DNA of 64,000 bases, from the IMG/VR virus record IMGVR_UViG_3300044825_002608, positions 35,658 to 99,657 of that record; one strand, written 5' to 3'. Every line of letters starts with the position of its first letter. Position 1 is the stretch's first letter. The notes beneath the pieces were generated by a model, which made no database searches, had not been told where the DNA came from, and was given only the letters and a program-made list of their open reading frames with translations. Of the stretch, positions 22,920 through 41,453 are shown piece after piece. Source of the DNA: a virus. Both the position numbers and the translations under genes were made by a program.

Positions 22920-22955
22920 ATACTAAAAACTACCTAGTGTAAACGAGGACGGTAG

Positions 22956-25353: not shown

Positions 25354-28077
25354 ATGCCTGTACAGATTGGTTCTAATCAAATTACTGGAATTACAACAAC
25401 ATCAAACTCAACTGATGCTGCAAGTAAACAGTATGTTGATAATTACTTTCAATCACAAGCACCAAATCCTGATACTTCACAAAATAAGTTTCTAGTAACT
25501 GATGGTTCTACAACTTCTTGGGCAGCAATTGATGGATATAATGAATACACAGCAGCAGGGAATTATACTTTTAATGTTCCAAGTACTGCAAGTGAGTTTC
25601 TAATTGAAGCAACAGGTGCAGGAGGTGGTGGAGGTTCTGCAACAACCGATGGAACTTCTTATCAACCTGCAAGTGCTTGGAGACAAAGAACTTCTGGGTT
25701 TGGTGGAACTCAAATATGGACTTTTACTTATGCAAACAATCTTTATGTTGCTGGTGGTCTTAATGGAGTTTTAACAACATCAACAGATGCAATCACTTGG
25801 ACTCAAAGAACTTCTGGATTTGGTTCAAGTATTATAACAATACTTACTTATGCAAACAATACTTATGTTGCTGGTGGCACTGGTGGAATATTAAACATAT
25901 CAACAGATGCAATTAATTGGACTTTAAGAACTTCTGGATTTGGTACTACTTCAATATTAACAATTGCTTATGGTACAACACCAATTGCAACATATGTTTC
26001 TGGTGGTAATGGTGGAACATTATTTACATCAACAGATACAATCACTTGGACACAAAGAACACCTGGATTTGGTTCAAGTGTAGTTTATGGAATAATATAT
26101 GCAAACAATACTTATGTTGCTGGTGGTACTGGTGGTGTTTTAAATACTTCAACAGATGCAATCACCTGGACTTTAAGAACTTCTGGATTTGGTACAAGTG
26201 GTATATTTTCTCTTACTTATGGAACATCACCAATCACAACTTATGTTGCTGGGGGAAGTGTTGGAATTTTAAATACCTCAACGGATGCAATCACTTGGAC
26301 TTTAAGAACTTCTGGATTTGGTACAAGACCTATAAATCAACAAGCACTTGCTTTTGGAAACAATCTTTATCTTGCTGGTGGTACTGGTGGTGTTTTAAAT
26401 ACTTCAACAGATGCAATCACTTGGGAATTAAGAACTTCTGGATTTGGTTCAAGTCAAATAATTGGCATCTCCTATGCAAGTAACCTTTATCTTGCTGGAG
26501 GAGATAATGGTGTTCTCACAACATCACCAACAACAGTATCAGGATTCTCAGGTGCAGGAGGTGGTGGTGGAGCATCAGCATCCTGGAAGATTTCAAGAGC
26601 ATACATTACTGGTTCTACAATCAATCTAAGTGTTGGTGCTGGTGGTACTGCAAACACAGCAGGAGCAGCAACCACAATATCTTGGACTGGACCATCAGGG
26701 ACTTATACCTTAACTGCAAATGGTGGAGGTGCTGGAAGTAGCACAAGTACCTTTGGTTTTCCTGCTGGTGGTTCTGGTGGAACATTACCAGCAGCAAATA
26801 CAAACTATCTTTCAGCATCTTCTGGAACTAATGGTGGTTCTGGAAGTGTTTTTGAACCAATTGTTGGTGCTGCAACAAACTCAACAATATCAAGTCAAAC
26901 AACAGGTGGTGGTGGTGGAAGAGTGAGTGAAGGAACAGGAAATGTTGGTGGTTCTGGTGGTACAATCAACTATTATGGGCAGACTTATACCAATAACTTT
27001 GCAGCAGTAAATGCGTTAAATTCTCAAAGTATTGCTGGACTTTCTTATGGTGCTGGTGGTGCTGGTGGTGGTGTTCAAAGTTCTGGTGCTGTTGTTTGGA
27101 CTTTAAGAACTTCTGGATTTGGAACAACTACTCCTTATTTACTTACGTATGGGTCTCATAATTCCACCTATGTTGCTGCTGGTGATGTAGGAGTTCTAAA
27201 CACTTCAACAGACGCAATCACTTGGACACAGAGAACATCAGGATTTGGTATTAATCTAAGAAGTTTATTTTATTCAAATAATTTATATCTTGTTGGAGGT
27301 AATAATGGTGCATTAGGAACTTCAACAGATGGAATTACTTGGACTGCAAGAACTTCTGGTGGAGGAGTTACCAGTATAAGGTCATTTACATACGGAAATA
27401 ATCTTTATCTTCTTTCAGGAGGAGATTTAGATCCTGAATCTTCATTATTATCGACTTCAACAGATGGAATTACTTGGACTTTAAGAACTTCTGGTTTTGG
27501 TACAAGTATTATTTGGACACTTGAATTTGGAAATAATATTTATATTGTTGGTGGATACGGTGGAACTCTATCCACTTCAACAGATGCAATTACTTGGACA
27601 CAAAGAACTTCTGGGTTTGGTATTAATGATATCAGAGCATTTCTTTTTGCAAATAATCTTTATGTTGCTGGTGGCACTGCTGGAACTTTAACAGTTTCTA
27701 CTGATGCAATTAACTGGACTCAAAGAACTTCTGGATTTGGTTCAACGCAAATTAATAATCTCAATTTTGGTAATACAAATTATATTTGTATTGGTAATAC
27801 TGGAAGATTAACAACTTCAACAGATGCAATCACTTGGACACTAAGAACTTCTGGTTTACCATTCACTTTAACTTCATCTACTTTTGCGAACAATACTTTT
27901 GTTGTTTGTGGTTCTGGTGCAGTTATTCACACCTCACCAGACTCAGCACTCATAGGTTCAGGAGCATCAGGAGTCAAAGGTGGTGGAGGCGGTGGCGGTG
28001 CATTTGATACCACAACACTTGCAACAGGTACTGGTGGTACTGGTGGTGATGGTTATGTTCGTATCAGTTGGTGGTAA
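25354..28077 (+). CDS. glycine-rich virion/adhesin protein with two 7-repeat beta-propeller units
   Basis: DAASKQYVD anchor, IEATGAGGGG scaffold, 2x7 WTxRTSGFG...STDAIT repeats, GGDGYVRISWW end. Confidence 0.75.
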   Translation: MPVQIGSNQITGITTTSNSTDAASKQYVDNYFQSQAPNPDTSQNKFLVTDGSTTSWAAIDGYNEYTAAGNYTFNVPSTASEFLIEATGAGGGGGSATTDGTSYQPASAWRQRTSGFGGTQIWTFTYANNLYVAGGLNGVLTTSTDAITWTQRTSGFGSSIITILTYANNTYVAGGTGGILNISTDAINWTLRTSGFGTTSILTIAYGTTPIATYVSGGNGGTLFTSTDTITWTQRTPGFGSSVVYGIIYANNTYVAGGTGGVLNTSTDAITWTLRTSGFGTSGIFSLTYGTSPITTYVAGGSVGILNTSTDAITWTLRTSGFGTRPINQQALAFGNNLYLAGGTGGVLNTSTDAITWELRTSGFGSSQIIGISYASNLYLAGGDNGVLTTSPTTVSGFSGAGGGGGASASWKISRAYITGSTINLSVGAGGTANTAGAATTISWTGPSGTYTLTANGGGAGSSTSTFGFPAGGSGGTLPAANTNYLSASSGTNGGSGSVFEPIVGAATNSTISSQTTGGGGGRVSEGTGNVGGSGGTINYYGQTYTNNFAAVNALNSQSIAGLSYGAGGAGGGVQSSGAVVWTLRTSGFGTTTPYLLTYGSHNSTYVAAGDVGVLNTSTDAITWTQRTSGFGINLRSLFYSNNLYLVGGNNGALGTSTDGITWTARTSGGGVTSIRSFTYGNNLYLLSGGDLDPESSLLSTSTDGITWTLRTSGFGTSIIWTLEFGNNIYIVGGYGGTLSTSTDAITWTQRTSGFGINDIRAFLFANNLYVAGGTAGTLTVSTDAINWTQRTSGFGSTQINNLNFGNTNYICIGNTGRLTTSTDAITWTLRTSGLPFTLTSSTFANNTFVVCGSGAVIHTSPDSALIGSGASGVKGGGGGGGAFDTTTLATGTGGTGGDGYVRISWW

Positions 28078-28089
28078 GGAGGAACTCAA

Positions 28090-29889
28090 ATGTCACAAGC
28101 AACAGGTAATTCAATCACAGGGATTTCAACAGTTGTTTCCAATACTGATGTAGTCAATAAGTCTTATGCAGAGAGTGGTATTGGAACACTACCATCACAG
28201 ACTGGTAATGCTGGAAAGGTCTTAACCACAACTGATGGAACCACAGCATCTTGGGATTATGTTTCCAACTATCAGGAGTTTACAAGTACCACACCACAGT
28301 CTTTTACAGTACCAAATCAAGCAAATCTTTTATACATTGAAGCAGTAGGTGCTGGTGGTGGAGGAAGTGCAGGACAGACAACAGCACAGGCAACAGTGAC
28401 TTGGACTTTAAGAACTTCTGGTTTTGGTACAACTCAAATTGTTACAATTACTTATGGAAACAATCTTTATGTTGCTGGTGGTAATGGTGGAATTCTAAAC
28501 ACTTCAACGGATGCAATCATTTGGACTCAAAGAACTTCTGGTTTTGGTACTAATAGTATTCTTGCTCTTGGTTTTGTAAATAACACTTATGTTGCTGGTG
28601 GTACTAATGGAGTAGTAAATACATCAACAGATGCAATCACTTGGACTTTAAGAACTTCTGGTTTTGGTGCTAATACAATCAATGCTTTTACTTTTGGGAC
28701 AGTACCAGTAAATACTTATGCTTTTGGTGGTACTTTAGGAAGAATAATTACTTCAACAGATACAATCACTTGGACTTTAAGAACTACTGGTTTTAGTGGT
28801 ACTGCTATTAGTGCTCTTACTTTTGGAAACAACCTTTATCTTGCTGGTGGTGGTTCTGGAATATTAAATACCTCAACAGATGCAATCACTTGGACTTTAA
28901 GAACTTCTGGTTTTGGTTCTACTATTATTCGTTCATTTAATTTTACAAATAATACTTATATTGCATCTGGTGATAGTGGGGTATTAAATACCTCAACAGA
29001 TACAATAATTTGGACCGCAAGAACTTCAGGAACTACTAGTGCTATTAATGCTCTTACTTTTGGAAATAATACTTATATTGCTGGGGGTGATAGTGGAATC
29101 TTAAATACCTCAACAGATGCAATCACTTGGACTTTAAGAACTTCAAATACCACTAATTCACTTAGATCTCTTATTTTTATAAACAATACTTATGTTGCTG
29201 GTGGTGGTTCTGGAATAGTAGCAACCTCATACACACAAGCATCAGGACAAGGAGGAGCATCAGGTTCTTACACTTCCTGGTATGTTCCAAAATCAATTAT
29301 ATCTTCAAACATCACAGTCAATCCTGGTGTTGGTGGAGCAGGAGGAACTACAGACGCAGCAGCAGGTTCAGCAGGAGCAGGAACCACAGTATCTTGGACT
29401 GGACCTGGGGGAACTTACACAATCACAGCATCTGGGGGAGGTGCTGGTGGTGTAGCAGGAGCAGCACAACTTACAAGTCAATCAAGTTCTTTTTATACCA
29501 CTGCTGGACTTTCTGGAGCAAGTCAAACACCAATAAATGCTGGGGTCACAGCAACATCACAAACCAATCAATTCCAACCAACAGGTGGTGGAAGTGGTGC
29601 TGGTTCTGCTACAAATGCTGGTGGTGCTGGTGGTGCAATTAATGTTTATGGAATCTCAACATCAGCATCTGGTGGAACTGCATCAGGAACAAATGGAACC
29701 ACAGCAGTAGCAATCTCTGGACTTCCTTATGGTTATGGTGGAGGTGGTGGTGGAGCAAGTGTTTCAATCGCAGCAACTGGTGGTAATGGAGTTCGTGGAG
29801 GTGGTGGAGGTGGTGGTGCTTCTATTGGTTCCACTTTTGGTAATGGTGGTAATGGTGGTAATGGTTATGTAAAGATTACCTGGTTCTAA
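28090..29889 (+). CDS. glycine-rich virion/adhesin protein with one 7-repeat beta-propeller unit
   Basis: Same scaffold (DVVNKSYAE, IEAVGAGGGG, GNGYVKITWF) with 7 repeats. Confidence 0.75.
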   Translation: MSQATGNSITGISTVVSNTDVVNKSYAESGIGTLPSQTGNAGKVLTTTDGTTASWDYVSNYQEFTSTTPQSFTVPNQANLLYIEAVGAGGGGSAGQTTAQATVTWTLRTSGFGTTQIVTITYGNNLYVAGGNGGILNTSTDAIIWTQRTSGFGTNSILALGFVNNTYVAGGTNGVVNTSTDAITWTLRTSGFGANTINAFTFGTVPVNTYAFGGTLGRIITSTDTITWTLRTTGFSGTAISALTFGNNLYLAGGGSGILNTSTDAITWTLRTSGFGSTIIRSFNFTNNTYIASGDSGVLNTSTDTIIWTARTSGTTSAINALTFGNNTYIAGGDSGILNTSTDAITWTLRTSNTTNSLRSLIFINNTYVAGGGSGIVATSYTQASGQGGASGSYTSWYVPKSIISSNITVNPGVGGAGGTTDAAAGSAGAGTTVSWTGPGGTYTITASGGGAGGVAGAAQLTSQSSSFYTTAGLSGASQTPINAGVTATSQTNQFQPTGGGSGAGSATNAGGAGGAINVYGISTSASGGTASGTNGTTAVAISGLPYGYGGGGGGASVSIAATGGNGVRGGGGGGGASIGSTFGNGGNGGNGYVKITWF

Positions 29890-29922
29890 TAAATAACTTT
29901 AAGAAAAAAGTATACAAAATAG

Positions 29923-32900
29923 ATGGCGACACTAGACAGTAATAAAGTCACAGGTGTAAGTGTAGTATCTAATTCCACAGATGCTGCAAATAAGTCTTAT
30001 GTTGATGATAGAAGCCTTAAAACAACAGGAATACCTGGAACTTTTTTAAGTGTTTATCCAGAGTCTGGTGTCTATTGGTTTGCAAGAACTTCTGGAATTG
30101 ATGGAAGTTCTGTAAATGCAATTACTTATGATAATAATGTCTTTCTTGCTGCGGGTGGTTCTGCATCTTTAATCTCTTCAACAGATGCAGTCACCTGGTC
30201 TTTAAGAACTTCTGGTGCTCGTGGTGATTTATATAGTGTTTTATATGCAAATAATCAATATCTTTTAGGTGGTGCGACTCCGCCAACAAACTCTTGGACT
30301 TTAAGAACTTCTGGTTTTGGTTCCACAGATGTTAATGATGTAACATTCGGAAATGGATTCTTTGTTGCTGGTGGATTTATTGAAACAGTCACCTGGACTT
30401 CAAGAACTTCTGGATTTGGTGATGCTGATATTAATGATGTAACTTTTGGTCAGGGATATTTTCTTGCTGGTGGTCTTTATGATCCTCTTGCAACTTGGAC
30501 TCAAAGAACTTCTGGATTTGGTTCAACTAATATACTTGGACTTACTTATGCAAATAATCTTTATATTGTTTCTGGTGATACTGGAATCTTAAACACTTCA
30601 ACAGATGCAATTGCTTGGACACAAAGAACTTCTGGGTTTGGTGCAAGTGGTATATTTGCACTTACTTATGCAAACAATCTTTATGTTGCTGGTGGTTCTG
30701 GTGGTGCATTAAACACTTCAACAGACGCAATCACTTGGACACAAAGAACTTCTGGGTTTGGTACAAGTGAAATAAGAACACTTATATATGCATTAAGTCA
30801 AACAAATGCTTATGTTGCTGGTGGTGTCGGTGGAACTCTAACCACTTCAACAGACGCAATCACCTGGACTTCAAGAACTTCTGGATTTGGTACAACTAGA
30901 ATATTACAACTTCTTTATATACCAACAACACCAACAGTAACTTATCTTGCTGTTGGTGATACTGGAACTCTAACTACTTCAACAGACGCAATCACTTGGA
31001 CTCAAAGAACTTCTGGGTTTGGTACTTCTATTATTATTGGACTTACCTATGGGAACAATCTTTATGTTGCTGGTGGTGTTGCTGGAACTTTAACTACCTC
31101 AACAGATTCAGTAACTTGGACACAAAGAACTTCTGGGTTTGGTACAAATAATGTACAAACACTTTTTTATGAAAATAATCTTTATATTGCTGGTTCAAAC
31201 TTTGGTAACTTGGCAATTTCAACAGATGCAGTTACTTGGACTCAAAGAACTTCTGGATTTGGTACGAGTCAAATAAGAGCATTTACATTTGGAAACAATA
31301 TTTATGTTGCTGGTGGTTCTGGTGGAACTCTAACCACAGCATCAGCACTCATAGACACAGGAGCACTTCTTACAGTATCAACAGACGCAGTATCCTGGAC
31401 TACAAGAACCACAACATCTAGTATTTCACAGATTGATTATCTTGCTTCTAATTCTTCTTATTATCTTGCATCAAACAGTACTTATGCTGGTGTAGATGGT
31501 GCGATTTCTGTTTCTACCAATAACATCACCTGGACTTTAAGAACTGCTGGTGTTTATGGAAATACAATTACTTCACTTTATGCTGATGATAATGGATATT
31601 TGGTTGGTGGTTTTATACCAGTCGTGAGTTGGACTCAAAGAACTTCTGGGTTTGGTACAAGTGTTATACTTGGACTTATCTATGCAAATAATACTTATTA
31701 TGCTGGTGGTACTGGTGGAACTTTAACTACTTCAACTGATGCAGTCACCTGGGAATTAAGAACTTCTGGATTTGGTACAAGTCAAATAGGAGCACTTCTT
31801 TATGCAAACAATACTTATGTTGCTTGTGGTAATGGTGGAATCTTATCAACTTCAACTGATGGAATTGCTTGGACTCAAAGAACATCAGGATATGGTACAA
31901 CAAATATTAGATATCTAACTTATGGTACTTCTCCAACAAGTACTTTTGTTGCAGTTTCTCAGGATTTGTCTTCAAACATTATTATCACTTCAACAGATGC
32001 AATTAGTTGGACACAAGTACCATTAGTATATGGAACTAATGGATTTCGTGGACTTGGTTATGGAAACAACCTTTATCTTATTGGTTCTGGTGCTGCAAAT
32101 AATGGGCATTTAGCAACTTCAACTGATGCAATTTCTTGGACTTTAAGAACATCAGGATTTGGTACAGGAACAATTTATTCATTTAATTATATTAACGGCA
32201 CTTATTATGCTGGTGGTTCTATGAGTGGTAGTGTTATTGGTGGTATTCTAAACACTTCAACAGATGCAATTACTTGGACTTTAAGAACTGCTGGATTTAA
32301 TGCTCTTCAAATTAATAATATTTCCTATGAAAATAACCTTTATGTTATTTCTGGTTCTGGTGGAACTTTAAACACTTCAACAGATGCAATCACTTGGACT
32401 CAAAGAACATCAGGATTTGGTACAAGCAGTACATCTAATGGTTCATTTACCTTTGGTAATAATCTTTATGTTGCTGGTGGTTTTGGTGGAACTCTAACCA
32501 CAGCAACCTATGAATCTTTAACCAATCTAGGTAATGGAGCACTTCTATCAACTTCTACTGATACCATCACCTGGAATATAAGAACTTCAATACCAAATGT
32601 TCAACAAGTAGATTCAATTGTATCCACACCAGGACTTTATCTTGCTGCTTTGAGTGATTATAATTCCAATACAACACTTGCAGTTTCGACTGATACTATT
32701 AACTGGGTTGCAAGAACTGCTGCAACTAGTATGCCTTTTAGAGTTGTATTAGGTACGAATGGTTCTAATCTTTATCTTGCTGCTTCTAGAACTGGTGCTT
32801 CTAATACAGTACAAACCTCAACAGATACAATCACTTGGACTTTAAGAACTGCTGGTATTGCTGCAAATTACGTTGATATTTCTTATGGAAATAATGTTTA

Positions 32901-35900
32901 TGTTTTAGCATCAAATGGTGGTTCAACAAGAACTTCAACTGATGCAATTGTTTGGACTTTAAGAACAAGCAATTTCGGTCTTATTTCTAATGCTCAAAGA
33001 AGTTCTGCATTTGGTAATAATACTTTTATTACTGCTGGAAGAATAGGACAACTTCAATCAACAACTTCAAGTATTCTATCCTCACTTGGAAATGGTGCTC
33101 GTTTAAATGTTTCTACGAATGGTATTTCTTGGTCGATAAGAACCACAGGACAAGGATTAGTTAGAATCAATAAACTCACTGCTGGTTCTTCTTATCTTGC
33201 TGCTGGTAGTGATTATATTTCAAATCCTGGTGTGATAATTGCTTCAACAGATAACATCACCTGGACTTTAAGAACTGCTGGTGTTTATGGAAATAGCATT
33301 ACTTCACTTTATGCTGATAGTTCTAGGTATTTGATTGGTGGTTTAAGTCCTGTTGTGAGTTGGACTTTAAGAACTTCTGGTTTTGGTGCAAGTCTTATAC
33401 TTGGACTAACTTATGGGAATAATCTTTATGTTGCTGGTGGTAATGGTGGAGTTCTAAACACTTCAACAGACGCAATCACTTGGACTCAAAGAACTTCTGG
33501 ATTTGGAGTAAGTCAAATAAGAGGACTTACTTATGGAAACAATCTTTATATTGCTGTTGGTGATAGTGGAACTTTAAACACTTCAACAGACTCTATTAGT
33601 TGGACACAAAGAACATCAGGATTTGGTTCAAGTCAAATTGTTACAATTGCTTATGGAAATAATCTTTATGTTGCTAGTGGTTTTAATGGAGCACTAACAA
33701 CTTCAACAGATGCAATTACTTGGGAATTAAGAACTTCTGGTACAACAGTAGGATTATATGGATTAAATTATCTAAACAATCTTTATCTTGTAGGTTCTAC
33801 TACTAGAGTATTTGCATCAACAGACGCAATTACTTGGGAAGCAAGAACATCTGGAATATCTTCTGGAATTGTTCGTTCTTTTGTTTATGCAAATGGTAGA
33901 TATCTTTATGCTGCTGGTGCCCTTGCTGTTGGAGGTGGAATTGCATCTTCAACAGACTCTATTACTTGGGAATTAAGAACATCAGGTCTTGGTACTAGTG
34001 GTCCTATTGCACTTACTTATGCAAACAATCTTTATGTTGCTGGTGGTATTGCTGGTGTCTTAGCAACTTCAACAGACTCCATTACTTGGAGTTCAAGAAC
34101 TTCTGGATTTGGTACAAGTGTTATATATTCACTTCTTTATGCAAACAATCTCTATGTTGCTGGTGGTGATAATGGAACTCTAACCACAGCAACCTACTCA
34201 CAACTCACCAATCTAGGTAATGGAGCACTTCTATCAACCTCTACTGATACCATCACCTGGAATATAAGAACTTCAATACCAAATGTTCAACAAGTAGATT
34301 CAATTACTTCAAGTCCTTCACTTTATCTTGCTGCATTTAGTGATTATAATTCCAATAGTACCTTAGCAGTTTCCACGGATACGATTTCTTGGACTGCAAG
34401 AACATCAGGATTTGGACTTACAACCATTCGTACAGTCACTTTCGGTAATAATCTTTATGTTGTTGCTGGTGATACTGGTATTCTTAACACTTCCACAGAT
34501 ACCATCACCTGGACATTAAGAACTTCAAGTCTCTCAACATCCATTACAGCACTTGATTTTGGCAATAATCTTTATAGTGCTTCTGATACTTCTGGTACAA
34601 ATCTTATTTCCACAGATGGAATTACTTGGATTGCAAGAACATCAGGTATTCCAGCAACAATTAATAATGTTGCATATGGAAATAATACTTATGTTGCAGC
34701 AGCAAACTCTGGATATACCGCATCAGGAACTTATGCATCTCTTACAAATCTTGGAGATGGTGCAACACTTCTCACTTCAACAAATGGTATTGCTTGGACT
34801 TTAAGAACCACAGGAACCAACACTCAAAGTATCAATCGAAAAGGATTGGTTTATGGTGGTAACTCTTACCTCACTTATGGTACTGATTATCTTAACCAAT
34901 TCTTCTTATCAGCATCCACAGATAGTATCACTTGGACTTTAAGAACCTCTGGTATTGATAGTCTCACAACTCTACAATCAGTTTCTTATGGAAACAATCT
35001 TTATATTCTTGGAGCAAATAATGGAATTATCAGCACTTCCACAGATACAATCACTTGGACTTTAAGAACATCAGGATTTGGTGGAGTAAATGTAAATGAT
35101 GTTGAATACTTAAATGGTACTTATGTTGCTGTTGGTGATGTTGGAACGATTACAACATCAACAGATTCTATTGCTTGGACTTATCGAATTAATCCAACCA
35201 ATCTTAACTATCAGTCTGTTAGATATTTGAATGACTTATATGTTGTTATGGGTGATAGTGGTTTATTAGTTACTTCAACGGATGCAGTTGTTTGGTCGAT
35301 TCGTACTTCAAATCTTTCACAAACGATTTGGACATCAGGATTTGGTGCAAGTACTTATGTTCTTGGTGGTGGTTTAGGACAGATTGCAACCTCACAATAT
35401 GTAAGTAAGAAATCAAACTGGACTTCTTTAACTTCTACCAATAGTACTGCAATCACTTATAAAGGAACACAAGAGTTTACATTACCAATTCCACAAACCT
35501 TCTATGTTCCACCAACTGCATCAACTTTTTATATTGAAGCAATTGGTGCAGGTGGTGGTGGAGCATCAGGAAGAGATAGTGGAACATTAGGTTCTGGTGG
35601 TGGTGGAGGTTCTGGTGCTTATAATGCTTGGTTAATACGAAGACCCGAACTTGGTGATGCAACAACACTTACAGTGACTCCTGGTTCTGCTGGAAGTGGC
35701 GGAAGAAGCACTAAACCTTTATGGACAAGTACTGATGCAATCACTTGGACTTTAAGAACTTCTGCTGGATTTGGTACAACAGGTGTTCTTGCACTTACTT
35801 ATGGAAACAATCTTTATGTTGCTGCTGGTGATACTATAAACACTTCAACAGATGGAATTACTTGGACTTTAAGAACTTCTGGATTTGGCACAAGTTTAAT

Positions 35901-38900
35901 TAGAGATATTATCTACGCAAATAATCTTTATGTTGCTGGTGGTTATGGTACTCCTTCTGCACCATTAGCAACCTCAACCGACGCAATCACTTGGACTCAA
36001 AGAACATCAGGATTTGGTTCAAGTCAAATTGTTACAATTGCTTATGGAAATAATCTTTATGTTGCTAGTGGTTTTAATGGAGCACTAACAACTTCAACAG
36101 ATGCAATTACTTGGACTCAAAGAACTTCTGGATTTGGTTCATCAATCATTTATTCTTTACTTTATGCAAATAATCTTTATGTAGCGGGTGGTAGAGATGG
36201 AACTCTAACCACTTCAACAGATGCAATTACCTGGACATTAAGAACATCAGGATTTGGTTCAAGTCAAATTGTTGCAATTACTTATGCCAATAATCTTTAT
36301 GTTGCTGGTGGTAATGGTGGAACTCTAGCAACTTCAACAGATGCAATTACCTGGACATTAAGAACATCAGGATTTGGCACAACTCAAATTGTTACAATTA
36401 CTTATGGAAACAATCTTTATGTTGCTGGTGGTAATGGTGGAATTCTAAACACTTCAACGGATGCAATCATTTGGACTCAAAGAACTTCTGGCGTGATATC
36501 CGGCAGCATTTATGATTTACTCTATCAAAATAATCTTTATATTGCTGGTGCTGGTTTTGCACAATCATCAGGTCTTTCAGGAACCAACACCACAATCACT
36601 TGGAGTTCTAATCTTCTTGATGGAAGAGCAACATATACTTTAAGTGCTGCTGCTGGTGGTGGTGCTTCTGGTACTGCTGTTACAGGAGGAACCGCAGGAA
36701 CCTCAGCAGCATCAACACTCAATCCACTCATTTCAGTTTCTGGTGTTGCAGGTGGTAATGGACTTTCAGCACTTGCAAGTTCTAATAACATCACACAAAC
36801 ACTTCCATTCCAAGTGACTGGTGGTGCTGGTGGTGCTTATAATACCAATACTGGTGGTAATGTTGTTTCTTACTATTACGGAAACACTTATACTGCAACT
36901 GGTGGAACAAATGCAGGTGGTAATGGTGCAAATGGAATTCCTACTTCTTATACTGGAAATATTGGTGGTGGTGGTGGTGCAGGTGGTGGTGCATTATCCA
37001 CAGGTATTAGCAGTTGGTATTTAAGAACTGCTGGTACAACATTAGGTATGAATGCTCTGGGTTCTTTGGGAACCTCATTCTTCGGTGGTGGTCTTGCAAC
37101 AACTGTAAGTTGGACTTTAAGAACTTCTGGGTTTGGTACATCTACAATTCAAGCAGTTACTTTTGGAAACAATCTTTATGTTGCTGGTGGTGGTGGAGGA
37201 GCATTAACAGTTTCTACTGATGCTATTAACTGGACTCAAAGAACATCAGGATTTGGTGCAAGTATTATAAGAGCAGTTACTTTTGGTAACAATCTTTATG
37301 TTGCTGGTGGTATTGGTGGAACTCTAACAACTTCAACAGATACAATCTCTTGGACAGTACAAAATGCAGGATTTGGTACAACCGAAATCTTTTCAGTTGC
37401 TTATGGAGCATTACCAACACCAACTTATGTTGCTGGTAGTAATGGCGGAAGATTAAATACCTCAACCGATGGAATTACTTGGACTTTAAGAACAGCAAGA
37501 TTTGGTACGAATACTATATATGCACTTCTTTATGCACCAACAACACCAACACCAATTTATCTTGCAGGTAGTACTACTTTCCTTAATGCTTCGACAGATG
37601 CAATTATTTGGGAATTAAGAACTTCTGGATTTGGTTCAAGTACTGTACTTGCATTTGCTTATGCATCAGGTCAAACAAATGCCTATGTTGCTGGTGGTCT
37701 TGCTGGATTATTAGTAACTTCAACAGATACAATTACTTGGACTCAAAGAACTTCTGGGTTTGGTGGATCTTCTATAAATGCATTAACATATGCAAACAAT
37801 CTTTATGTTGCTGGTGGTCTTCCTGGAACCTTAACAATCTCAACAGATGCAATCACTTGGACACAAAGAACTTCTAGTACTGGTGGAAATACTATAAACG
37901 CACTTATCTCTGTTGGTAATACTTATGTTCTTGGTGGTGGTTCATTTATAAACACCTCATCAACAGCAATACTTTCTTCTTATGGTAATGGTGCTTATTA
38001 TACCTTCTCAACTGATAGTATCACCTGGTCTATAAGAACCACAGCATCTAATTCACAGCAGATTAATGCTGTTTATGCAGATAATAACTTCTATCTTGCT
38101 GCTGGTGTGAATTATATTAATGAAGCATCCTTAATGGTTTCTACTGATAGTATCAACTGGGTACAAAGAACCTCAGGAGCACAGAGAGGATTGAATGCTC
38201 TGATTAAACAAGGTTCAACTTATGTTCTTGGTGGTGAAGCAATTACCACAACTTGGTTCCAGAGAACATCAGGATTTGGTACGACTGCAATTACTCAATT
38301 AGCATCCAGTGGAACGACTTATGTTGCTGTTGGTAATGCTGGTACTTTAACTGCTTCTACTGATGGTATTAACTGGGTTTCAAGTGTATCAGGATTTGGT
38401 GCAACAAATATTGCTGGTGTAACTTACTTCAATGGTGAGTATTTAATTGGTGGTACTGGTTCTGCTGTTATGTGGACTCAAAGAACATCAGGTACTGCAT
38501 CAGCAATTTATACTTCAATGTATGATGGTACTAATTTCTTTGCTGCTGGTGCATCTGGTATTTTAAGAGTATCCACAGATTCAATTAACTGGACTGCAAG
38601 AACTTCTGGAACAACAGTACAGATTGGTCAAACTACTGGTGGTAATGGACTTCTTTATGTTTCTGGAAAATCTGGCACTGCAACAACAGGTAATGAACCT
38701 TATGTATTAGCAGGTGCTTCTGGTATTTTAAGAACTTCTACTGATGGAATTGCTTGGACTACAAGAACTGCTACCGCTAGTAGCAATATGCAAGCAATTA
38801 CTTATGGCGATTTGCCAACATCAACTTATGTTGTTACTGGGACTGGTGCATTATTTACTTCAACTGATAATATTCGTTGGACTGCAAGAACAACAGGGAA

Positions 38901-40692
38901 TATTACAAACTCCATAGTCAGTCTTTTATATTCATCTTCACCAACAACGACTTATCTTAATGCTCGTCTTAACGGCGTCATACAAACTTCTACTGATGCA
39001 ATTTCTTGGGAAACAAGAACTTCTGGTACTCCAAATAATTTCTTTTCATCTCTTTATGGAAATGTTTATGTTGTTGGTGGTGCTTCTGGAACACTTTTAA
39101 CCTCTACTGATGCAGTTGCTTGGACTTTAAGAACTGCTGGTGTTCTACAAGCTTTTTATGGTCTTGCATATAACAATAATGTTTATGTTGCTTCTGGTTC
39201 TGCTGGTGCAAGTATCAGTTCCACAGATGCAATCACTTGGACTTTAAGAACATCAGGATTTGGTACTTCTGTAATTCAAGCAGTTACTTATGGAAACAAC
39301 ATTTATGTAAATGGTGGTATTGCAGGTCTCATTACGACTTCAACACAAGACACTTTATCTTCTCTTGGTAACGGAGCACTTCTAAATGCTTCTACTGATG
39401 GTTTAACTTGGATTACAAGAACTGCACCACTCAATACTCAAACGATTACTGCAATTGGTTCTGGTGGTTCTTATTCCTTTGCACACGGAACTAATTATAG
39501 AAGTGAAGTTGGTTTCTTAATGACTTCAACCAATAATATCACTTGGTTATTAAGAACATCAGGATTTGGTGCAACAGCAATCACAACCTTTGCGTTTGGT
39601 AATGGTGTTTATCTTGCTGGTGCGAATGCTGGTTTATTAAGAACTTCCACGGATACTATTACTTGGACATTAAGAACATCAGGATTTGGTACTTCTAATA
39701 TCTCTGGTTTAACTTATGGAGGTGTTTATGTTGCTGTTGCAGGTGGTGTCACAAGAACTTCAACTGATGCAATTGCTTGGACGGTAAGAACTGCTACTTG
39801 GGGCACGGCGGCAGTTTATCTTTTATATGGGAATAATCTTTATATTGGTGGAGGTAATACTGGTGGATTTACAAGAACTTCCACGGATGCAATTGTTTGG
39901 ATTGCAAGAACATCAGGTTTCGGTACTTCCAACACTAATACACTAACTTATGGTAATAATCTTTATGTTGCTGGTGGTGCTGGTGGAACACTTACAACTG
40001 CAACTCAAAGTGTTCTTGCTGCTCTTGGAGAAGGTGCATATCTAAGCACTTCAACTGATACAATCACTTGGACTTTAAGAACCACTACAAATAATATGAT
40101 TTCGGTGGTTGCTCTTACTTCTAATAGTTCATTCTATGTTGCAGCAACAACTAACTATGCTGGTGTAGGTCCTGCTTTAATTACCTCCACAGATACAATT
40201 TCTTGGGTAATGAGAACATCAGGATTTGGAACAACTTTAATTAGAGCACTTTCTTATGGTTCAGTCTTTGTTGCTGCTGGTGATGCTGGAATCATTACAA
40301 CATCCACAGATAGAATCACCTGGACTTTACAGACATCAGGATTTGGTGCAACTGCGATTAATGAAATTGGTTATGTAAATAATCTTTATGTTGCTGCTGG
40401 TAATGGTGGAAGAATTATTACTTCTACTGACGCGATTGTGTGGTCTTCAAGGTCATCCAATACAATTGCAAACCTATTAGCAACAACTGCATATGCAAAC
40501 AATTTATATGTAATTGGTGGTGCTTTTGGTGCAATCACTTATGCTTCTGGAACTTCATCAGGAAACGCAGGAAATGGTGGTTCCGGAACTTATGGCGGTG
40601 GAGGTGGTGGAGGTGGATACTCTGCCGAAACCAATACCTATGGAGACGGTGGTGATGGTGGAAATGGATATGTGAAAATTACCTGGTGGTAA
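29923..40692 (+). CDS. giant (3589 aa) glycine-rich virion/adhesin protein with 77 BNR/Asp-box-like repeats (11 nested 7-repeat propeller units)
   Basis: Same scaffold as the two preceding genes; repeats of about 40 aa, W-x-x-R-T-S-G...Y.AGG..G.L..STD; late-promoter-like AATAAATA upstream. Confidence 0.8.
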   Translation: MATLDSNKVTGVSVVSNSTDAANKSYVDDRSLKTTGIPGTFLSVYPESGVYWFARTSGIDGSSVNAITYDNNVFLAAGGSASLISSTDAVTWSLRTSGARGDLYSVLYANNQYLLGGATPPTNSWTLRTSGFGSTDVNDVTFGNGFFVAGGFIETVTWTSRTSGFGDADINDVTFGQGYFLAGGLYDPLATWTQRTSGFGSTNILGLTYANNLYIVSGDTGILNTSTDAIAWTQRTSGFGASGIFALTYANNLYVAGGSGGALNTSTDAITWTQRTSGFGTSEIRTLIYALSQTNAYVAGGVGGTLTTSTDAITWTSRTSGFGTTRILQLLYIPTTPTVTYLAVGDTGTLTTSTDAITWTQRTSGFGTSIIIGLTYGNNLYVAGGVAGTLTTSTDSVTWTQRTSGFGTNNVQTLFYENNLYIAGSNFGNLAISTDAVTWTQRTSGFGTSQIRAFTFGNNIYVAGGSGGTLTTASALIDTGALLTVSTDAVSWTTRTTTSSISQIDYLASNSSYYLASNSTYAGVDGAISVSTNNITWTLRTAGVYGNTITSLYADDNGYLVGGFIPVVSWTQRTSGFGTSVILGLIYANNTYYAGGTGGTLTTSTDAVTWELRTSGFGTSQIGALLYANNTYVACGNGGILSTSTDGIAWTQRTSGYGTTNIRYLTYGTSPTSTFVAVSQDLSSNIIITSTDAISWTQVPLVYGTNGFRGLGYGNNLYLIGSGAANNGHLATSTDAISWTLRTSGFGTGTIYSFNYINGTYYAGGSMSGSVIGGILNTSTDAITWTLRTAGFNALQINNISYENNLYVISGSGGTLNTSTDAITWTQRTSGFGTSSTSNGSFTFGNNLYVAGGFGGTLTTATYESLTNLGNGALLSTSTDTITWNIRTSIPNVQQVDSIVSTPGLYLAALSDYNSNTTLAVSTDTINWVARTAATSMPFRVVLGTNGSNLYLAASRTGASNTVQTSTDTITWTLRTAGIAANYVDISYGNNVYVLASNGGSTRTSTDAIVWTLRTSNFGLISNAQRSSAFGNNTFITAGRIGQLQSTTSSILSSLGNGARLNVSTNGISWSIRTTGQGLVRINKLTAGSSYLAAGSDYISNPGVIIASTDNITWTLRTAGVYGNSITSLYADSSRYLIGGLSPVVSWTLRTSGFGASLILGLTYGNNLYVAGGNGGVLNTSTDAITWTQRTSGFGVSQIRGLTYGNNLYIAVGDSGTLNTSTDSISWTQRTSGFGSSQIVTIAYGNNLYVASGFNGALTTSTDAITWELRTSGTTVGLYGLNYLNNLYLVGSTTRVFASTDAITWEARTSGISSGIVRSFVYANGRYLYAAGALAVGGGIASSTDSITWELRTSGLGTSGPIALTYANNLYVAGGIAGVLATSTDSITWSSRTSGFGTSVIYSLLYANNLYVAGGDNGTLTTATYSQLTNLGNGALLSTSTDTITWNIRTSIPNVQQVDSITSSPSLYLAAFSDYNSNSTLAVSTDTISWTARTSGFGLTTIRTVTFGNNLYVVAGDTGILNTSTDTITWTLRTSSLSTSITALDFGNNLYSASDTSGTNLISTDGITWIARTSGIPATINNVAYGNNTYVAAANSGYTASGTYASLTNLGDGATLLTSTNGIAWTLRTTGTNTQSINRKGLVYGGNSYLTYGTDYLNQFFLSASTDSITWTLRTSGIDSLTTLQSVSYGNNLYILGANNGIISTSTDTITWTLRTSGFGGVNVNDVEYLNGTYVAVGDVGTITTSTDSIAWTYRINPTNLNYQSVRYLNDLYVVMGDSGLLVTSTDAVVWSIRTSNLSQTIWTSGFGASTYVLGGGLGQIATSQYVSKKSNWTSLTSTNSTAITYKGTQEFTLPIPQTFYVPPTASTFYIEAIGAGGGGASGRDSGTLGSGGGGGSGAYNAWLIRRPELGDATTLTVTPGSAGSGGRSTKPLWTSTDAITWTLRTSAGFGTTGVLALTYGNNLYVAAGDTINTSTDGITWTLRTSGFGTSLIRDIIYANNLYVAGGYGTPSAPLATSTDAITWTQRTSGFGSSQIVTIAYGNNLYVASGFNGALTTSTDAITWTQRTSGFGSSIIYSLLYANNLYVAGGRDGTLTTSTDAITWTLRTSGFGSSQIVAITYANNLYVAGGNGGTLATSTDAITWTLRTSGFGTTQIVTITYGNNLYVAGGNGGILNTSTDAIIWTQRTSGVISGSIYDLLYQNNLYIAGAGFAQSSGLSGTNTTITWSSNLLDGRATYTLSAAAGGGASGTAVTGGTAGTSAASTLNPLISVSGVAGGNGLSALASSNNITQTLPFQVTGGAGGAYNTNTGGNVVSYYYGNTYTATGGTNAGGNGANGIPTSYTGNIGGGGGAGGGALSTGISSWYLRTAGTTLGMNALGSLGTSFFGGGLATTVSWTLRTSGFGTSTIQAVTFGNNLYVAGGGGGALTVSTDAINWTQRTSGFGASIIRAVTFGNNLYVAGGIGGTLTTSTDTISWTVQNAGFGTTEIFSVAYGALPTPTYVAGSNGGRLNTSTDGITWTLRTARFGTNTIYALLYAPTTPTPIYLAGSTTFLNASTDAIIWELRTSGFGSSTVLAFAYASGQTNAYVAGGLAGLLVTSTDTITWTQRTSGFGGSSINALTYANNLYVAGGLPGTLTISTDAITWTQRTSSTGGNTINALISVGNTYVLGGGSFINTSSTAILSSYGNGAYYTFSTDSITWSIRTTASNSQQINAVYADNNFYLAAGVNYINEASLMVSTDSINWVQRTSGAQRGLNALIKQGSTYVLGGEAITTTWFQRTSGFGTTAITQLASSGTTYVAVGNAGTLTASTDGINWVSSVSGFGATNIAGVTYFNGEYLIGGTGSAVMWTQRTSGTASAIYTSMYDGTNFFAAGASGILRVSTDSINWTARTSGTTVQIGQTTGGNGLLYVSGKSGTATTGNEPYVLAGASGILRTSTDGIAWTTRTATASSNMQAITYGDLPTSTYVVTGTGALFTSTDNIRWTARTTGNITNSIVSLLYSSSPTTTYLNARLNGVIQTSTDAISWETRTSGTPNNFFSSLYGNVYVVGGASGTLLTSTDAVAWTLRTAGVLQAFYGLAYNNNVYVASGSAGASISSTDAITWTLRTSGFGTSVIQAVTYGNNIYVNGGIAGLITTSTQDTLSSLGNGALLNASTDGLTWITRTAPLNTQTITAIGSGGSYSFAHGTNYRSEVGFLMTSTNNITWLLRTSGFGATAITTFAFGNGVYLAGANAGLLRTSTDTITWTLRTSGFGTSNISGLTYGGVYVAVAGGVTRTSTDAIAWTVRTATWGTAAVYLLYGNNLYIGGGNTGGFTRTSTDAIVWIARTSGFGTSNTNTLTYGNNLYVAGGAGGTLTTATQSVLAALGEGAYLSTSTDTITWTLRTTTNNMISVVALTSNSSFYVAATTNYAGVGPALITSTDTISWVMRTSGFGTTLIRALSYGSVFVAAGDAGIITTSTDRITWTLQTSGFGATAINEIGYVNNLYVAAGNGGRIITSTDAIVWSSRSSNTIANLLATTAYANNLYVIGGAFGAITYASGTSSGNAGNGGSGTYGGGGGGGGYSAETNTYGDGGDGGNGYVKITWW

Positions 40693-40736: not shown

Positions 40737-41453
40737 ATGTTGAATTATTCAAATCAACCGAAGAATGATTTTAAAGGAAAAACAATTGCTTTCTGCCTTC
40801 CGGGTCGTTCATATTCAGGAACATTTCTCACACAGTTTATACGATTGGTTTTTGATTTAAATCAACTAGGTATTAACTTTTATATCTCACAAAAATACAG
40901 TTCAATGGTAAACTTTGCCAGAACTGATTGTTTGCAAGCAGATAATTTTGCAGGTACGATGCTGACTCCTTGGAGAGGTCAGGTCAATTATGATTATATT
41001 ATGTGGATTGATAGTGATATTGTTTTCAATACACAAAATGTTCTAGACCTTCTTGAAATGGATAAGGATATCGCAACTGGTTGGTATGTCCAATCAAATG
41101 GAACTGCAACATCCAATCAATCCACTGTCGTTGTGAATATGGATAAAGAACTTCTTCTTAAATCTGGTTCTTATTATTTTGAAACTGTTGAAGATATGCA
41201 AAGACGACCAGGACCTTTTAAAATTGATTACTGTGGATTTGGTTGGGTTCTGATGAAGAAAGGTGTCTTTGAGAAGATTCCTTACCCTTGGTTTGCACCA
41301 AAGAGAGTACAACTGACCAGAGAAGATGGTGTTCTTCTTGAAGATATGTGCTCCGAAGACGTTGCAATGTGTGAAGATTTTAGAGAATATGGATTTGAGA
41401 TTTGGTGTAATCCAAAAGTTAGAGTTGGTCACGAAAAAACTATTGTACTATGA
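40737..41453 (+). CDS. GT-A fold glycosyltransferase-like protein
   Basis: YIMWIDSDI (DXD), GFGWVLMKKGVFE, SEDVAMC, VGHEK. Confidence 0.75.
   Translation: MLNYSNQPKNDFKGKTIAFCLPGRSYSGTFLTQFIRLVFDLNQLGINFYISQKYSSMVNFARTDCLQADNFAGTMLTPWRGQVNYDYIMWIDSDIVFNTQNVLDLLEMDKDIATGWYVQSNGTATSNQSTVVVNMDKELLLKSGSYYFETVEDMQRRPGPFKIDYCGFGWVLMKKGVFEKIPYPWFAPKRVQLTREDGVLLEDMCSEDVAMCEDFREYGFEIWCNPKVRVGHEKTIVL

What the first reader, a model, noticed from the sequence alone, without database searches (positions are those of the whole stretch)
29923..40692. A branched, Russian-doll tree of eleven 7-bladed beta-propellers in one 3589-aa protein
The ~40-aa repeats are not a simple tandem array. Eight times a repeat breaks off after its GG turn (about 30270, 30372, 30472, 31608, 33340, 37090, 38235, 38452). 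Eight times a linker resembling LxxLG[NDE]-GAxL..ST[DN] supplies the missing half (about 31360, 32536, 33094, 34222, 34759, 37990, 39373, 40033). Read as brackets, these nest without conflict and every unit has exactly 7 repeats. Tree 1 is root > P1 > (P2 > (P3, P4), P5). One circularly permuted unit sits inside the Gly-rich scaffold (about 35716-36555). Tree 2 is root > (A, B > C). The total is 11 x 7 = 77 repeats. The repeat after each branch point carries an extra loop with DY/NY/TY (SDY, TDY, VNY, TNY, STY), which looks like a dedicated junction module. The parse is seen in the sequence. That it folds as a dendritic multivalent adhesin built by recursive domain insertion is inference; I know of no description of this architecture.
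Basis: partly seen in the sequence, partly recalled or inferred. Interest (0 to 1): 0.92.

Follow-up and report, generated by a model that had tools for sequence, protein, structure and literature searches.

The report
Propellers nested inside propellers, phage fibre
A 3589-residue fibre-like protein of an uncultured freshwater T4-like cyanophage reads as eleven seven-bladed beta-propellers spliced into each other's loops in a branching, Russian-doll pattern. A structure model confirms one inner propeller, but the closure of the outer ones is still inferred.

Summary
ORF 29923-40692 (+) is intact and encodes 3589 aa. It has 77 blade anchors, 8 breaks after strand B and 8 linkers that each supply one orphan strand C. 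An automated bracket parse gives 11 units of exactly 7 blades, each 276-291 aa once spliced. No random bracket placement out of 2,000,000 did the same.

The same grammar appears in relatives with other tree shapes. One example is a family of about 920 aa with the pattern bb(7)bbbbb. Related genes form arrays on IMG/VR viral contigs.

AlphaFold2 on the parent+child pair B>C was confident only for model residues 78-372, which is the child as bracketed. That part superposes on whole 7-bladed propellers at Z about 30 and rmsd 2.5 A. This contradicts a linear reading. The parent halves stayed below pLDDT 50, so parent closure is inferred, not shown.

The propellers sit on a Gly_rich_2 fibre-tip scaffold shared with two upstream paralogs that carry 2 and 1 propellers. 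An adhesin role is inference.

Recursive same-fold insertion has one known precedent, Si3 of cyanobacterial RNA polymerase (PMC13114784). I found no description of nested propellers. This scan has already noted the same architecture on other phage contigs.

The parts
29923..30069 (+). N-terminal ~49 aa with the motif shared by the three paralogs (..N-x-[IV]-T-G-[IV]..S/T-D-A/V-x-x-K-x-Y..). It is the presumed virion-attachment end.
   Evidence: There are weak PHROG hits only.
30070..35400 (+). Tree 1. The root1 propeller spans aa 50-1826 with blades at 50, 86, 1619, 1665, 1706, 1746 and 1785. It hosts P1 in the B-C loop of its blade 2.
30289..34764 (+). P1 (aa 123-1614 including the closing linker). 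It is a host propeller with children in blade 1 (P2) and blade 3 (P5).
   Evidence: P1 is 58% identical to P2 when spliced, and the two are sisters at 100/97 support.
30388..33099 (+). P2 (aa 156-1059). It is a host propeller with children in blade 1 (P3) and blade 3 (P4).
30490..31365 (+). P3, a leaf propeller (aa 190-481 including the linker).
   Evidence: The leaves are 54-64% identical to each other.
31624..32541 (+). P4, a leaf propeller (aa 568-873 including the linker).
33355..34227 (+). P5, a leaf propeller (aa 1145-1435 including the linker).
   Evidence: DNA repeat D14 (32442-32717 versus 34128-34403, 83% identical) links the P4 end plus closer to the P5 end plus closer.
35401..35715 (+). 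Gly-rich scaffold, piece 1. It is a beta-sandwich-like start followed by the first G-A-G-G-G-G run.
   Evidence: Pfam Gly_rich_2 (PF21722) scores 33.6 bits against a cut-off of 24.3 on aa 1820-1936. The piece is collinear with the paralogs.
35716..36570 (+). A propeller plugged into scaffold site 1 and permuted by one strand: it begins with strand C plus S-T-D and ends after strand B. It has 7 blades and 7 Asp-box-like motifs.
   Evidence: DUF6242 match. The nearest PDB sequences are the designed Ika8 and Tako8 propellers.
36571..37002 (+). Gly-rich scaffold, piece 2.
   Evidence: 44% identical to the corresponding piece of the 907-aa paralog.
37003..40548 (+). Tree 2, plugged into scaffold site 2. 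The root2 propeller (aa 2361-3542) carries children in blade 1 (A) and blade 3 (B).
   Evidence: root2 groups with P1 and P2 at 96/93 support.
37105..37995 (+). A, a leaf propeller (aa 2395-2691 including the linker).
38248..40038 (+). B (aa 2776-3372). It is a child of root2 and hosts C in its blade 2.
   Evidence: About 13 metagenomic proteins and several IMG/VR ORFs share the same bb(7)bbbbb topology.
38467..39378 (+). C, a leaf propeller (aa 2849-3152 including the linker). It is the only unit with a confident structure model.
   Evidence: AlphaFold2 gives pLDDT 70-89 for model residues 78-372, which is aa 2849-3143. VIA-align gives Z 30.1, rmsd 2.5 A, 275 of 286 residues against 7big_A (a 7-bladed designer propeller), and Z 30.5 against 2z2o_D.
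40549..40692 (+). Gly-rich scaffold, piece 3. It is 42% Gly and ends in G-Y-V-K-I-T-W-W, followed by the stop codon.
25354..28077 (+). A 907-aa paralog with the same N-terminus and Gly-rich scaffold. It has one plain 7-bladed propeller at each of sites 1 and 2.
28090..29889 (+). A 599-aa paralog with the same scaffold and one 7-bladed propeller at site 1.

Best explanation
The gene encodes a virion fibre or adhesin protein of an uncultured freshwater T4-like cyanophage. Its core is a small glycine-rich fibre-tip domain (Pfam Gly_rich_2), preceded by a short conserved N-terminal attachment motif.

The building block is a portable cassette: a 7-bladed Asp-box-like beta-propeller of about 280 aa. 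It starts with the outer strand D of its last blade and ends with strands A-B-C of that same blade. Its two ends therefore meet at a 'velcro' seam, so the cassette can be spliced into a hairpin.

Cassettes are plugged into two loops of the Gly-rich domain and into one position before it. They are also plugged, recursively, into the B-C hairpin of blades 1, 2 or 3 of other cassettes. Each such socket has three parts:
- a host blade cut after '..Y-L-x-G-G';
- a 9-15 aa return linker that supplies the missing strand C;
- a specialised next blade with a [DN]-Y loop.

The result is 11 propellers per chain arranged as two trees plus one single unit.

Shown here: the sequence grammar, the 7-blade rule, its conservation in relatives, and the fold and boundaries of one child.

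Inferred: the split hosts close into propellers; the tree grew by duplicating host-plus-socket cassettes; and the propellers act as multivalent, probably glycan- or surface-binding, receptor-recognition modules.
For: (1) Parse. There are 77 anchors, giving 11 units of 7 blades. Spliced unit lengths are 276-291 aa. Random placement gave an all-7 nesting in 0 of 2,000,000 trials. The 67 Asp-box-like motifs equal 10x6+7.

(2) Every opener lacks exactly strand C plus S-T-D, and every closer adds exactly one orphan 'A-x-L-x-[STV]' plus S-T-D.

(3) P1, P2 and B are both hosts and children, yet their own opening and closing linkers are as short as those of the leaves. Their ends must therefore meet, as in a closed propeller. 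This is a geometric inference.

(4) Conservation:
- About 13 proteins of roughly 920 aa parse as bb(7)bbbbb and align to B>C at 40-47% identity over its full length.
- P0005 and P0006 nest four deep in a chain.
- P0010 has one host with four children.
- L024 parses as b(7)bb(7)bbbb.
- In the other proteins, 57 of 93 innermost bracketed units have 7 blades even with a crude parser.

(5) Structure. AlphaFold2 on B>C is confident only for residues 78-372. That region has 28 strands and superposes on complete 7-bladed propellers at Z 30 and rmsd 2.4-2.5 A.

(6) Spliced hosts behave as evolutionary units. P1+P2 have 100/97 support, root2 joins them at 96/93 and root1 at 90/92, apart from the leaves.

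(7) Scaffold. The three Gly-rich pieces are collinear with the 907-aa and 599-aa paralogs at 43-55% identity, and Gly_rich_2 scores above its cut-off.

(8) Context:
- The gene lies downstream of ORFs that hit tail-fibre and baseplate PHROGs, in a psbA-carrying phage.
- Related blades occur fused to Mtd_N (PF18454) and to the phage tail Collar domain (PF07484).
- All 50 related loci come from IMG/VR viral contigs.
- In Pam3 gp24 the Gly-rich domain is the receptor-binding tip, with variable distal loops (PMC9608196).
Against: - No host propeller was modelled with confidence. The parent parts of B>C had pLDDT below 50, and the whole of tree 2 had a mean of 32.7.
- The long-range order of a 10.8-kb repetitive ORF rests on one metagenome assembly. 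Logan contigs confirm pieces and 9 of 16 junctions, not the whole.
- The Gly-rich pieces have no sequence match to any solved structure, so likeness to gp38 or gp24 tips rests on the Pfam family and on the literature.
- There is no direct evidence for virion location or for any ligand.
- The N-terminal motif gives only weak and conflicting PHROG hits: tail fibre assembly at 9e-5 and head decoration at 3e-3.
Confidence: 0.7

Rival explanations
1. Children fold, hosts do not close in cis. The bracketed leaf units are real closed propellers, but the split host segments do not reassemble within one chain. They might stay as open beta-sheets or flexible spacers, or they might complement host segments of neighbouring chains in an oligomeric (for example trimeric) fibre by domain swapping.
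For: AlphaFold2 gave no confident fold for the host parts of B>C or for tree 2. Many phage fibres are intertwined trimers, Pam3 gp24 among them (PMC9608196).
Against: Hosts always sum to exactly 7 blades, and their spliced lengths equal those of the leaves. Hosts that are also children have the same short linkers as leaves. Spliced hosts form a supported clade along their full length. The low pLDDT can be explained by a 20-sequence alignment with edge artefacts and only 3 recycles.
Confidence: 0.17
2. Linear reading. Consecutive repeats simply fold seven at a time into a string of tandem propellers or a solenoid, and the breaks and linkers are only irregular loops.
For: Many bacterial relatives with the same blade type are plain tandem arrays.
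Against: In the B>C construct a linear reading puts the first propeller at residues 1 to about 290. AlphaFold2's only confident domain is 78-372, which starts at the break and ends at the linker. Each break lacks a whole strand C plus S-T-D, and each closer has one extra. The all-7 nesting is not expected by chance.
Confidence: 0.03
3. Assembly artefact. The tree topology is partly a product of mis-joining near-identical 120-nt repeats in a short-read metagenome assembly.
For: The record is an uncultivated viral contig. Logan contigs break inside the ORF and show many repeat-induced 'joints'.
Against: Repeats are only about 60-83% identical at the DNA level. Exact-match pieces bridge 9 of 16 junctions. 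Random mis-joins would break the 7-blade rule, yet all 11 units obey it. Independent contigs from other samples carry the same grammar.
Confidence: 0.07

Closest known systems
Si3 insertion of cyanobacterial RNA polymerase beta' (RpoC2): recursively nested hybrid-motif (SBHM/HABAS) domains (PMC13114784; PMC10895346)
   Same: Domains of one fold are inserted into each other recursively (A1-B1-C-B2-A2). Some hosts carry more than one insert. Up to six levels are reported.
   Different: Si3 uses small domains of tens of residues inside an enzyme's trigger loop. Here the units are 280-aa seven-bladed propellers in a phage fibre-like protein. Here the inserted subtrees are as large as or far larger than their hosts (1500 aa inside a 280-aa host), contrary to the size trend that paper reports. 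The word 'propeller' does not occur in that survey.
Phage fibre-tip proteins with a glycine-rich receptor-binding domain (Pfam Gly_rich_2, PF21722; Pam3 gp24, Salmonella phage S16 gp38)
   Same: The Gly_rich_2 match is above its cut-off. There are G-G-G-G-x-G-G runs and a C-terminal G-Y-V-x-I-x-W strand. In Pam3 the distal loops of this domain vary and are proposed to bind the receptor.
   Different: Here whole propellers, or trees of them, replace loops at two sites. There is no sequence match to solved structures, so the polyglycine lattice fold is not tested.
Asp-box beta-propellers: DUF6242 (PF19755), YCF48/HCF136, sialidases with an inserted I-domain (PMC2716378, PMC4747158)
   Same: DUF6242 matches at 62 bits. 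There is an S-x-D-...-W hairpin between strands C and D. The modelled child resembles YCF48 (TM 0.66-0.72). Sialidase propellers can host a foreign domain that protrudes from the propeller.
   Different: The motif here is S-T-D-x-[IV]-x-W, without the canonical Gly. The inserted domain is another propeller of the same family, and the insertion is repeated recursively.
Double propellers closed across two rings (Aip1/WDR1, EML TAPE domain); recalled from memory, not tested here
   Same: One propeller lies, in sequence, between strands of a blade of the other. That is a one-level nesting.
   Different: That nesting is a single level at a chain end, in WD40-type proteins. There is no dedicated socket and linker, no branching and no recursion.

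Membership tests
Seven-bladed beta-propeller, Asp-box-like (Pfam DUF6242, PF19755) | Significant match to the family HMM | tested here: met
   The score is 62.1 bits against a cut-off of 29, E 8.6e-17, in 5 stretches. The permuted unit alone scores 32.8 bits.
Seven-bladed beta-propeller, Asp-box-like (Pfam DUF6242, PF19755) | Closed ring of seven four-stranded blades | tested here: met
   This was met for child C only. Residues 78-372 have pLDDT 70-89 and 28 strands. They give Z 30.1, rmsd 2.5 A and 275 of 286 residues against 7-bladed 7big_A. The other ten units rest on sequence only.
Seven-bladed beta-propeller, Asp-box-like (Pfam DUF6242, PF19755) | Canonical Asp-box S-x-D-x-G-x-T-W between strands C and D | tested here: inconclusive
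   There are 67 copies of S-T-D-x-[IV]-x-W. S, D and W are kept and the Gly is replaced. The hairpin geometry could not be inspected.
Recursive (nested) domain-insertion architecture, A1-B1-C-B2-A2 | Insert lies wholly between two segments that form one host domain | tested here: inconclusive
   This is met in sequence: the host is 7 blades when spliced. The host fold was not modelled with confidence.
Recursive (nested) domain-insertion architecture, A1-B1-C-B2-A2 | An inserted domain itself hosts a further insert (two levels or more) | tested here: met
   At the sequence level root1 > P1 > P2 > P3/P4 gives three levels below the root, and root2 > B > C gives two. Relatives reach four.
Phage Gly_rich_2 (PF21722) fibre-tip domain | Match to the family HMM above the gathering score | tested here: met
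   aa 1820-1936 scores 33.6 bits against 24.3. Relative P0129 scores 29.1 bits. The 599-aa paralog scores 21.4 bits, just below the cut-off.
Phage Gly_rich_2 (PF21722) fibre-tip domain | Polyglycine-type lattice fold as in S16 gp38 or Pam3 gp24 | tested here: inconclusive
   No PDB sequence match was found with a single sequence or with a profile.
Phage tail fibre / receptor-binding protein | Encoded in the virion tail or baseplate gene module | tested here: met
   The ORFs at 19869-25352 hit tail-fibre and baseplate-wedge PHROGs (E down to 5e-39), and the three paralogs follow directly on the same strand.
Phage tail fibre / receptor-binding protein | Presence in the virion and binding to a host receptor | not testable with these tools
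   This needs virion proteomics, EM and binding assays.

The most novel reading that the evidence does not exclude
This is a natural 'socket and plug' grammar for proteins. A beta-propeller cassette with juxtaposed ends, plus a dedicated socket (cut host blade, return linker, buttress blade), can be inserted into copies of itself without limit. Uncultured freshwater cyanophages use it to grow dendritic fibre tips carrying 1 to at least 11 binding propellers, with tree shapes (chain, star, binary) that differ between close relatives. Whole receptor-binding modules would then be gained, lost and swapped as units. That would be a route to host-range change by architecture rather than by point mutation, and a case where inserts are much larger than their hosts.
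Probability: 0.5. Interest if true: 0.85.

Novelty: new variant of a known kind. Interest (0 to 1): 0.75.

Why it matters
Beta-propellers are among the best-studied repeat folds, and tandem arrays of them are common. A propeller hosting other propellers, recursively and with branching, was not found in the literature I could search.

If the hosts really close, the protein shows three things:
- A 280-aa all-beta domain can fold around inserts five times its own size.
- It offers a natural template for designing branched multivalent binders.
- It points to a modular way in which abundant lake cyanophages could diversify host recognition.

It is also a practical warning. Domain callers and gene annotators that assume consecutive repeats belong to one domain will mis-segment such proteins.

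Tried and rejected
- AlphaFold2 on the whole of tree 2 (aa 2356-3545, alignment A1, 13 rows) gave mean pLDDT 32.7 and was uninformative.
- The protein-atlas search was unreachable.
- Megablast of the ORF against the phage collection gave no match.
- tblastn of the 599-aa paralog found only three weak propeller hits in cultured phages.
- The search for related loci with a single sequence found nothing. With alignment A2 it found 50 loci.
- Adding single-propeller paralogs to the alignment scattered their blades over host and child, so I dropped them.
- I asked whether the 599-aa paralog's propeller is closer to hosts or to children of the roughly 920-aa family. The test was inconclusive and was partly spoiled by alignment edge artefacts.
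- PDB sequence searches for the Gly-rich part found nothing meaningful.
- Logan contigs do not span the ORF, so the long-range order could not be checked independently.
- The exact late-promoter word TATAAATA is absent upstream of these genes. Only a one-mismatch version lies before 29923.
- Six literature searches for nested or inserted propellers found no description.
Full report
WHAT IS THERE

The window is part of a 99,657-bp linear IMG/VR viral contig, about 47% complete. It carries psbA and T4-type tail-fibre and baseplate genes, and the runs that hold it are freshwater metagenomes. ORF 29923-40692 (+) is uninterrupted and encodes 3589 aa. The protein is 28% Ser+Thr and 14% Gly, with one Cys and 12 Lys.

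Two smaller paralogs lie directly upstream on the same strand, at 25354-28077 (907 aa) and 28090-29889 (599 aa).

THE REPEAT AND ITS IRREGULARITIES

The unit is about 40 aa. It consists of an Asp-box-like hairpin, S-T-D-x-[IV]-x-W, then strand D (W-x-x-R-T), strand A, strand B (..L-Y-V-A-G-G) and strand C (G-x-L-x-T).

- There are 67 motifs with S-T-D and 10 further strand-D anchors without it.
- At eight places a blade stops after strand B, and 4-6 residues later a new strand D begins.
- At eight other places a normal blade is followed by a 9-15 aa linker (typically ..L-x-x-L-G-N-G) and then by one extra strand, 'A-x-L-x-[STV]', before the next S-T-D.

Each blade after a closer is 44-46 aa long, lacks S-G-F-G, and has an enlarged B-C loop with [DN]-Y.

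THE PARSE

A script treats 'anchor without Asp-box 24-40 aa after the previous anchor' as an opening bracket. It treats 'Asp-box anchor at least 53 aa after the previous one' as a closing bracket.

- This reproduces tree 1 exactly as bb(b(b(7)bb(7)bbbb)bb(7)bbbb)bbbbb.
- After excluding one long blade at aa 2884, or after requiring the G-x-G motif in the linker, it gives tree 2 as b(7)bb(bb(7)bbbbb)bbbb.
- All 11 units have 7 blades, and spliced lengths are 276-291 aa.
- Random placement of 8 opening and 8 closing brackets gave an all-7 nesting in 0 of 2,000,000 trials.
- The Asp-box count fits: ten D-first units have six each, because the seam has none, and the permuted unit has seven (10x6+7 = 67).

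WHY THIS IS STRUCTURALLY SENSIBLE (INFERENCE FROM PROPELLER GEOMETRY)

Every unit except the permuted one begins with strand D and ends with strand C of the same blade. Its termini therefore lie where the C-D hairpin would be. Each unit is inserted into the B-C hairpin of a host blade.

P1, P2 and B are both hosts and inserts. Their own linkers are as short as those of the leaves. This requires their ends to meet as they do in a closed ring.

RELATIVES

A whole-length search found 148 large relatives. The closest (P0004-P0006, 2.2 kaa) share the N-terminus, the Gly-rich domain and the nesting. P0005 and P0006 nest four deep in a chain. P0009-P0011 have one host with four successive children.

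A search with B>C found about 13 proteins of roughly 920 aa. Each parses as bb(7)bbbbb and aligns with B>C over 94-99% of its length at 40-47% identity.

Fifty IMG/VR loci hold arrays of paralogs such as 7|7, then bb(7)bbbbb, then a larger tree. That is the same gene order as here.

Among 95 new 50%-identity representatives from a search of 1.8 billion proteins, only two show a bracketed 7-blade unit, and both end in the Gly-rich ..I-T-W-W tail. Nesting therefore appears confined to this phage family, while plain tandem arrays of the same blade are common in bacteria.

With the crude parser, 57 of 93 innermost units in other proteins have 7 blades. The small counts are false closers at long blades.

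STRUCTURE PREDICTION

The 1190-aa tree 2 failed, with a mean pLDDT of 32.7.

For B>C (591 aa) I used a 20-row alignment of proteins with the same topology. Three of the five models gave the same picture: pLDDT 70-89 for residues 78-372 and below 50 elsewhere.

- Residue 78 is the first residue after the opening linker, and 372 lies in the closing linker.
- The confident part has 28 strands.
- It superposes on complete 7-bladed propellers: 7big_A at Z 30.1, rmsd 2.5 A, 275 of 286 residues, model range 79-372; and 2z2o_D at Z 30.5. The TM-score to YCF48 is 0.66-0.72.

A linear reading would put a domain boundary near residue 290. That was not seen.

The host halves were not resolved, so host closure remains untested.

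THE SCAFFOLD

The non-propeller parts are aa 1827-1931, 2217-2360 and 3543-3589. They are collinear with the corresponding parts of the 907-aa and 599-aa paralogs at 43-55% identity, and they match Pfam Gly_rich_2.

- The 599-aa protein has one propeller at site 1.
- The 907-aa protein has one at each of sites 1 and 2.
- The 3589-aa protein has the permuted unit at site 1, tree 2 at site 2, and tree 1 ahead of the scaffold.

In the myocyanophage Pam3 the glycine-rich domain of the tail fibre is the distal, receptor-binding part, and it has variable loops (PMC9608196). I could not test the fold here.

HOW THE TREE GREW (INFERENCE)

Spliced P1 and P2 are 58% identical and have the same sockets, in blades 1 and 3. 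So does root2.

In a maximum-likelihood tree P1+P2 are sisters (100/97), root2 joins them (96/93) and root1 joins next (90/92). The leaves and the paralogs' propellers form an unresolved second group. C and root1 sit on long branches, so their placement is unsure.

An 83%-identical 276-nt DNA repeat links the end of P4, its closer and the next host blade to the same parts of P5. The simplest reading is that a host-plus-socket cassette was duplicated and a copy was inserted into a socket of its own kind.

FUNCTION (INFERENCE)

Several things point to a virion fibre or adhesin whose propellers are the binding modules, multiplied for avidity or for several specificities:
- the position behind tail-fibre-like genes;
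- the shared N-terminal motif;
- the fibre-tip scaffold;
- the fusion of the same blades to Mtd_N and to tail Collar domains in other phage proteins.

Nothing here shows a ligand, virion location or oligomeric state.

COMPARISON WITH WHAT IS KNOWN

Recursive, branching insertion of one fold into itself is documented for Si3 of cyanobacterial RNA polymerase (PMC13114784). That survey of 48,551 insertion events does not mention propellers, and it reports that inserts are consistently smaller than hosts. Here the opposite holds.

Asp-box propellers that host a foreign domain are known among sialidases. I recall one-level cross-ring closures in Aip1 and EML proteins, but that is from memory only.

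Six literature searches found no nested propellers.

Earlier notes of this scan describe the same architecture on other cyanophage contigs. The phenomenon is therefore a family trait and not unique to this window.

RELIABILITY OF THE SEQUENCE

Two or three freshwater runs hold 94-97% of the ORF's k-mers. Two of them have the same size and may be one data set filed twice, and one may be the sample the window was assembled from. Their contigs match at 0 mismatches in pieces that bridge junctions o1, o4, c5, o6, c6, o7, o8, c7 and c8. None spans the ORF. The unbroken 7-blade rule argues against mis-joins.

VERDICT

The nested reading is well supported in sequence, in comparison with relatives, and for one child in structure. 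Host closure and the adhesin role are still inferences.

Noticed in passing
window 25354-28077 and 28090-29889: Two upstream paralogs (907 and 599 aa) share the N-terminal motif and the Gly-rich scaffold. They carry 2 and 1 un-nested propellers. Together with the 3589-aa gene they form a graded series. Related IMG/VR contigs have the same three-gene order, with a bb(7)bbbbb protein in the middle position (L008, L011, L012).
   Followed up: partly
window 40737-42133 (and on to 44256): Two paralogous genes directly downstream match PHROG 1574 (E 2e-75 and 9e-50) and, more weakly, glycosyltransferase PHROGs. The ORF at 42781-44256 has a methyltransferase-like hit. Because the fibre proteins are 28% Ser+Thr, fibre glycosylation is conceivable, but I did not test it.
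   Followed up: no
window 19869-22919 and 22956-25352: Two large ORFs share a C-terminal module of about 100 aa that hits many tail-fibre and baseplate-wedge PHROGs. Their N-termini differ from the motif of the propeller paralogs.
   Followed up: no
proteins P0016, P0019, P0034, P0046, P0051, P0062; P0174, P0198, P0201, P0205, P0209, P0217, P0237: Propellers with 49-57% identical blades are fused to Mtd_N (PF18454, the N-terminal domain of the major tropism determinant). Others are fused to the phage tail Collar domain (PF07484). In those proteins the propellers are un-nested.
   Followed up: no
loci L022, L024, L017/L026, L018: Other viral contigs encode different tree shapes. L022 has a host inside a host carrying three or four children. 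L024 has b(7)bb(7)bbbb followed by two plain propellers. L017 has b(bb(7)bb(7)bbb)bbbbbb. Tree shape clearly varies between related phages.
   Followed up: partly
window 35716-36570: By sequence, the nearest solved structures to the near-consensus leaf propeller are the computationally designed symmetric propellers Ika8 and Tako8 (E 1e-18 and 1e-9). The natural blades are unusually idealised.
   Followed up: no
window 29885-29922: The 33-nt gap before the giant ORF holds T-A-A-T-A-A-A-T-A, which is one mismatch from the T4-type late-promoter word. Exact TATAAATA occurs only 5 times in the window and never upstream of these fibre genes.
   Followed up: no
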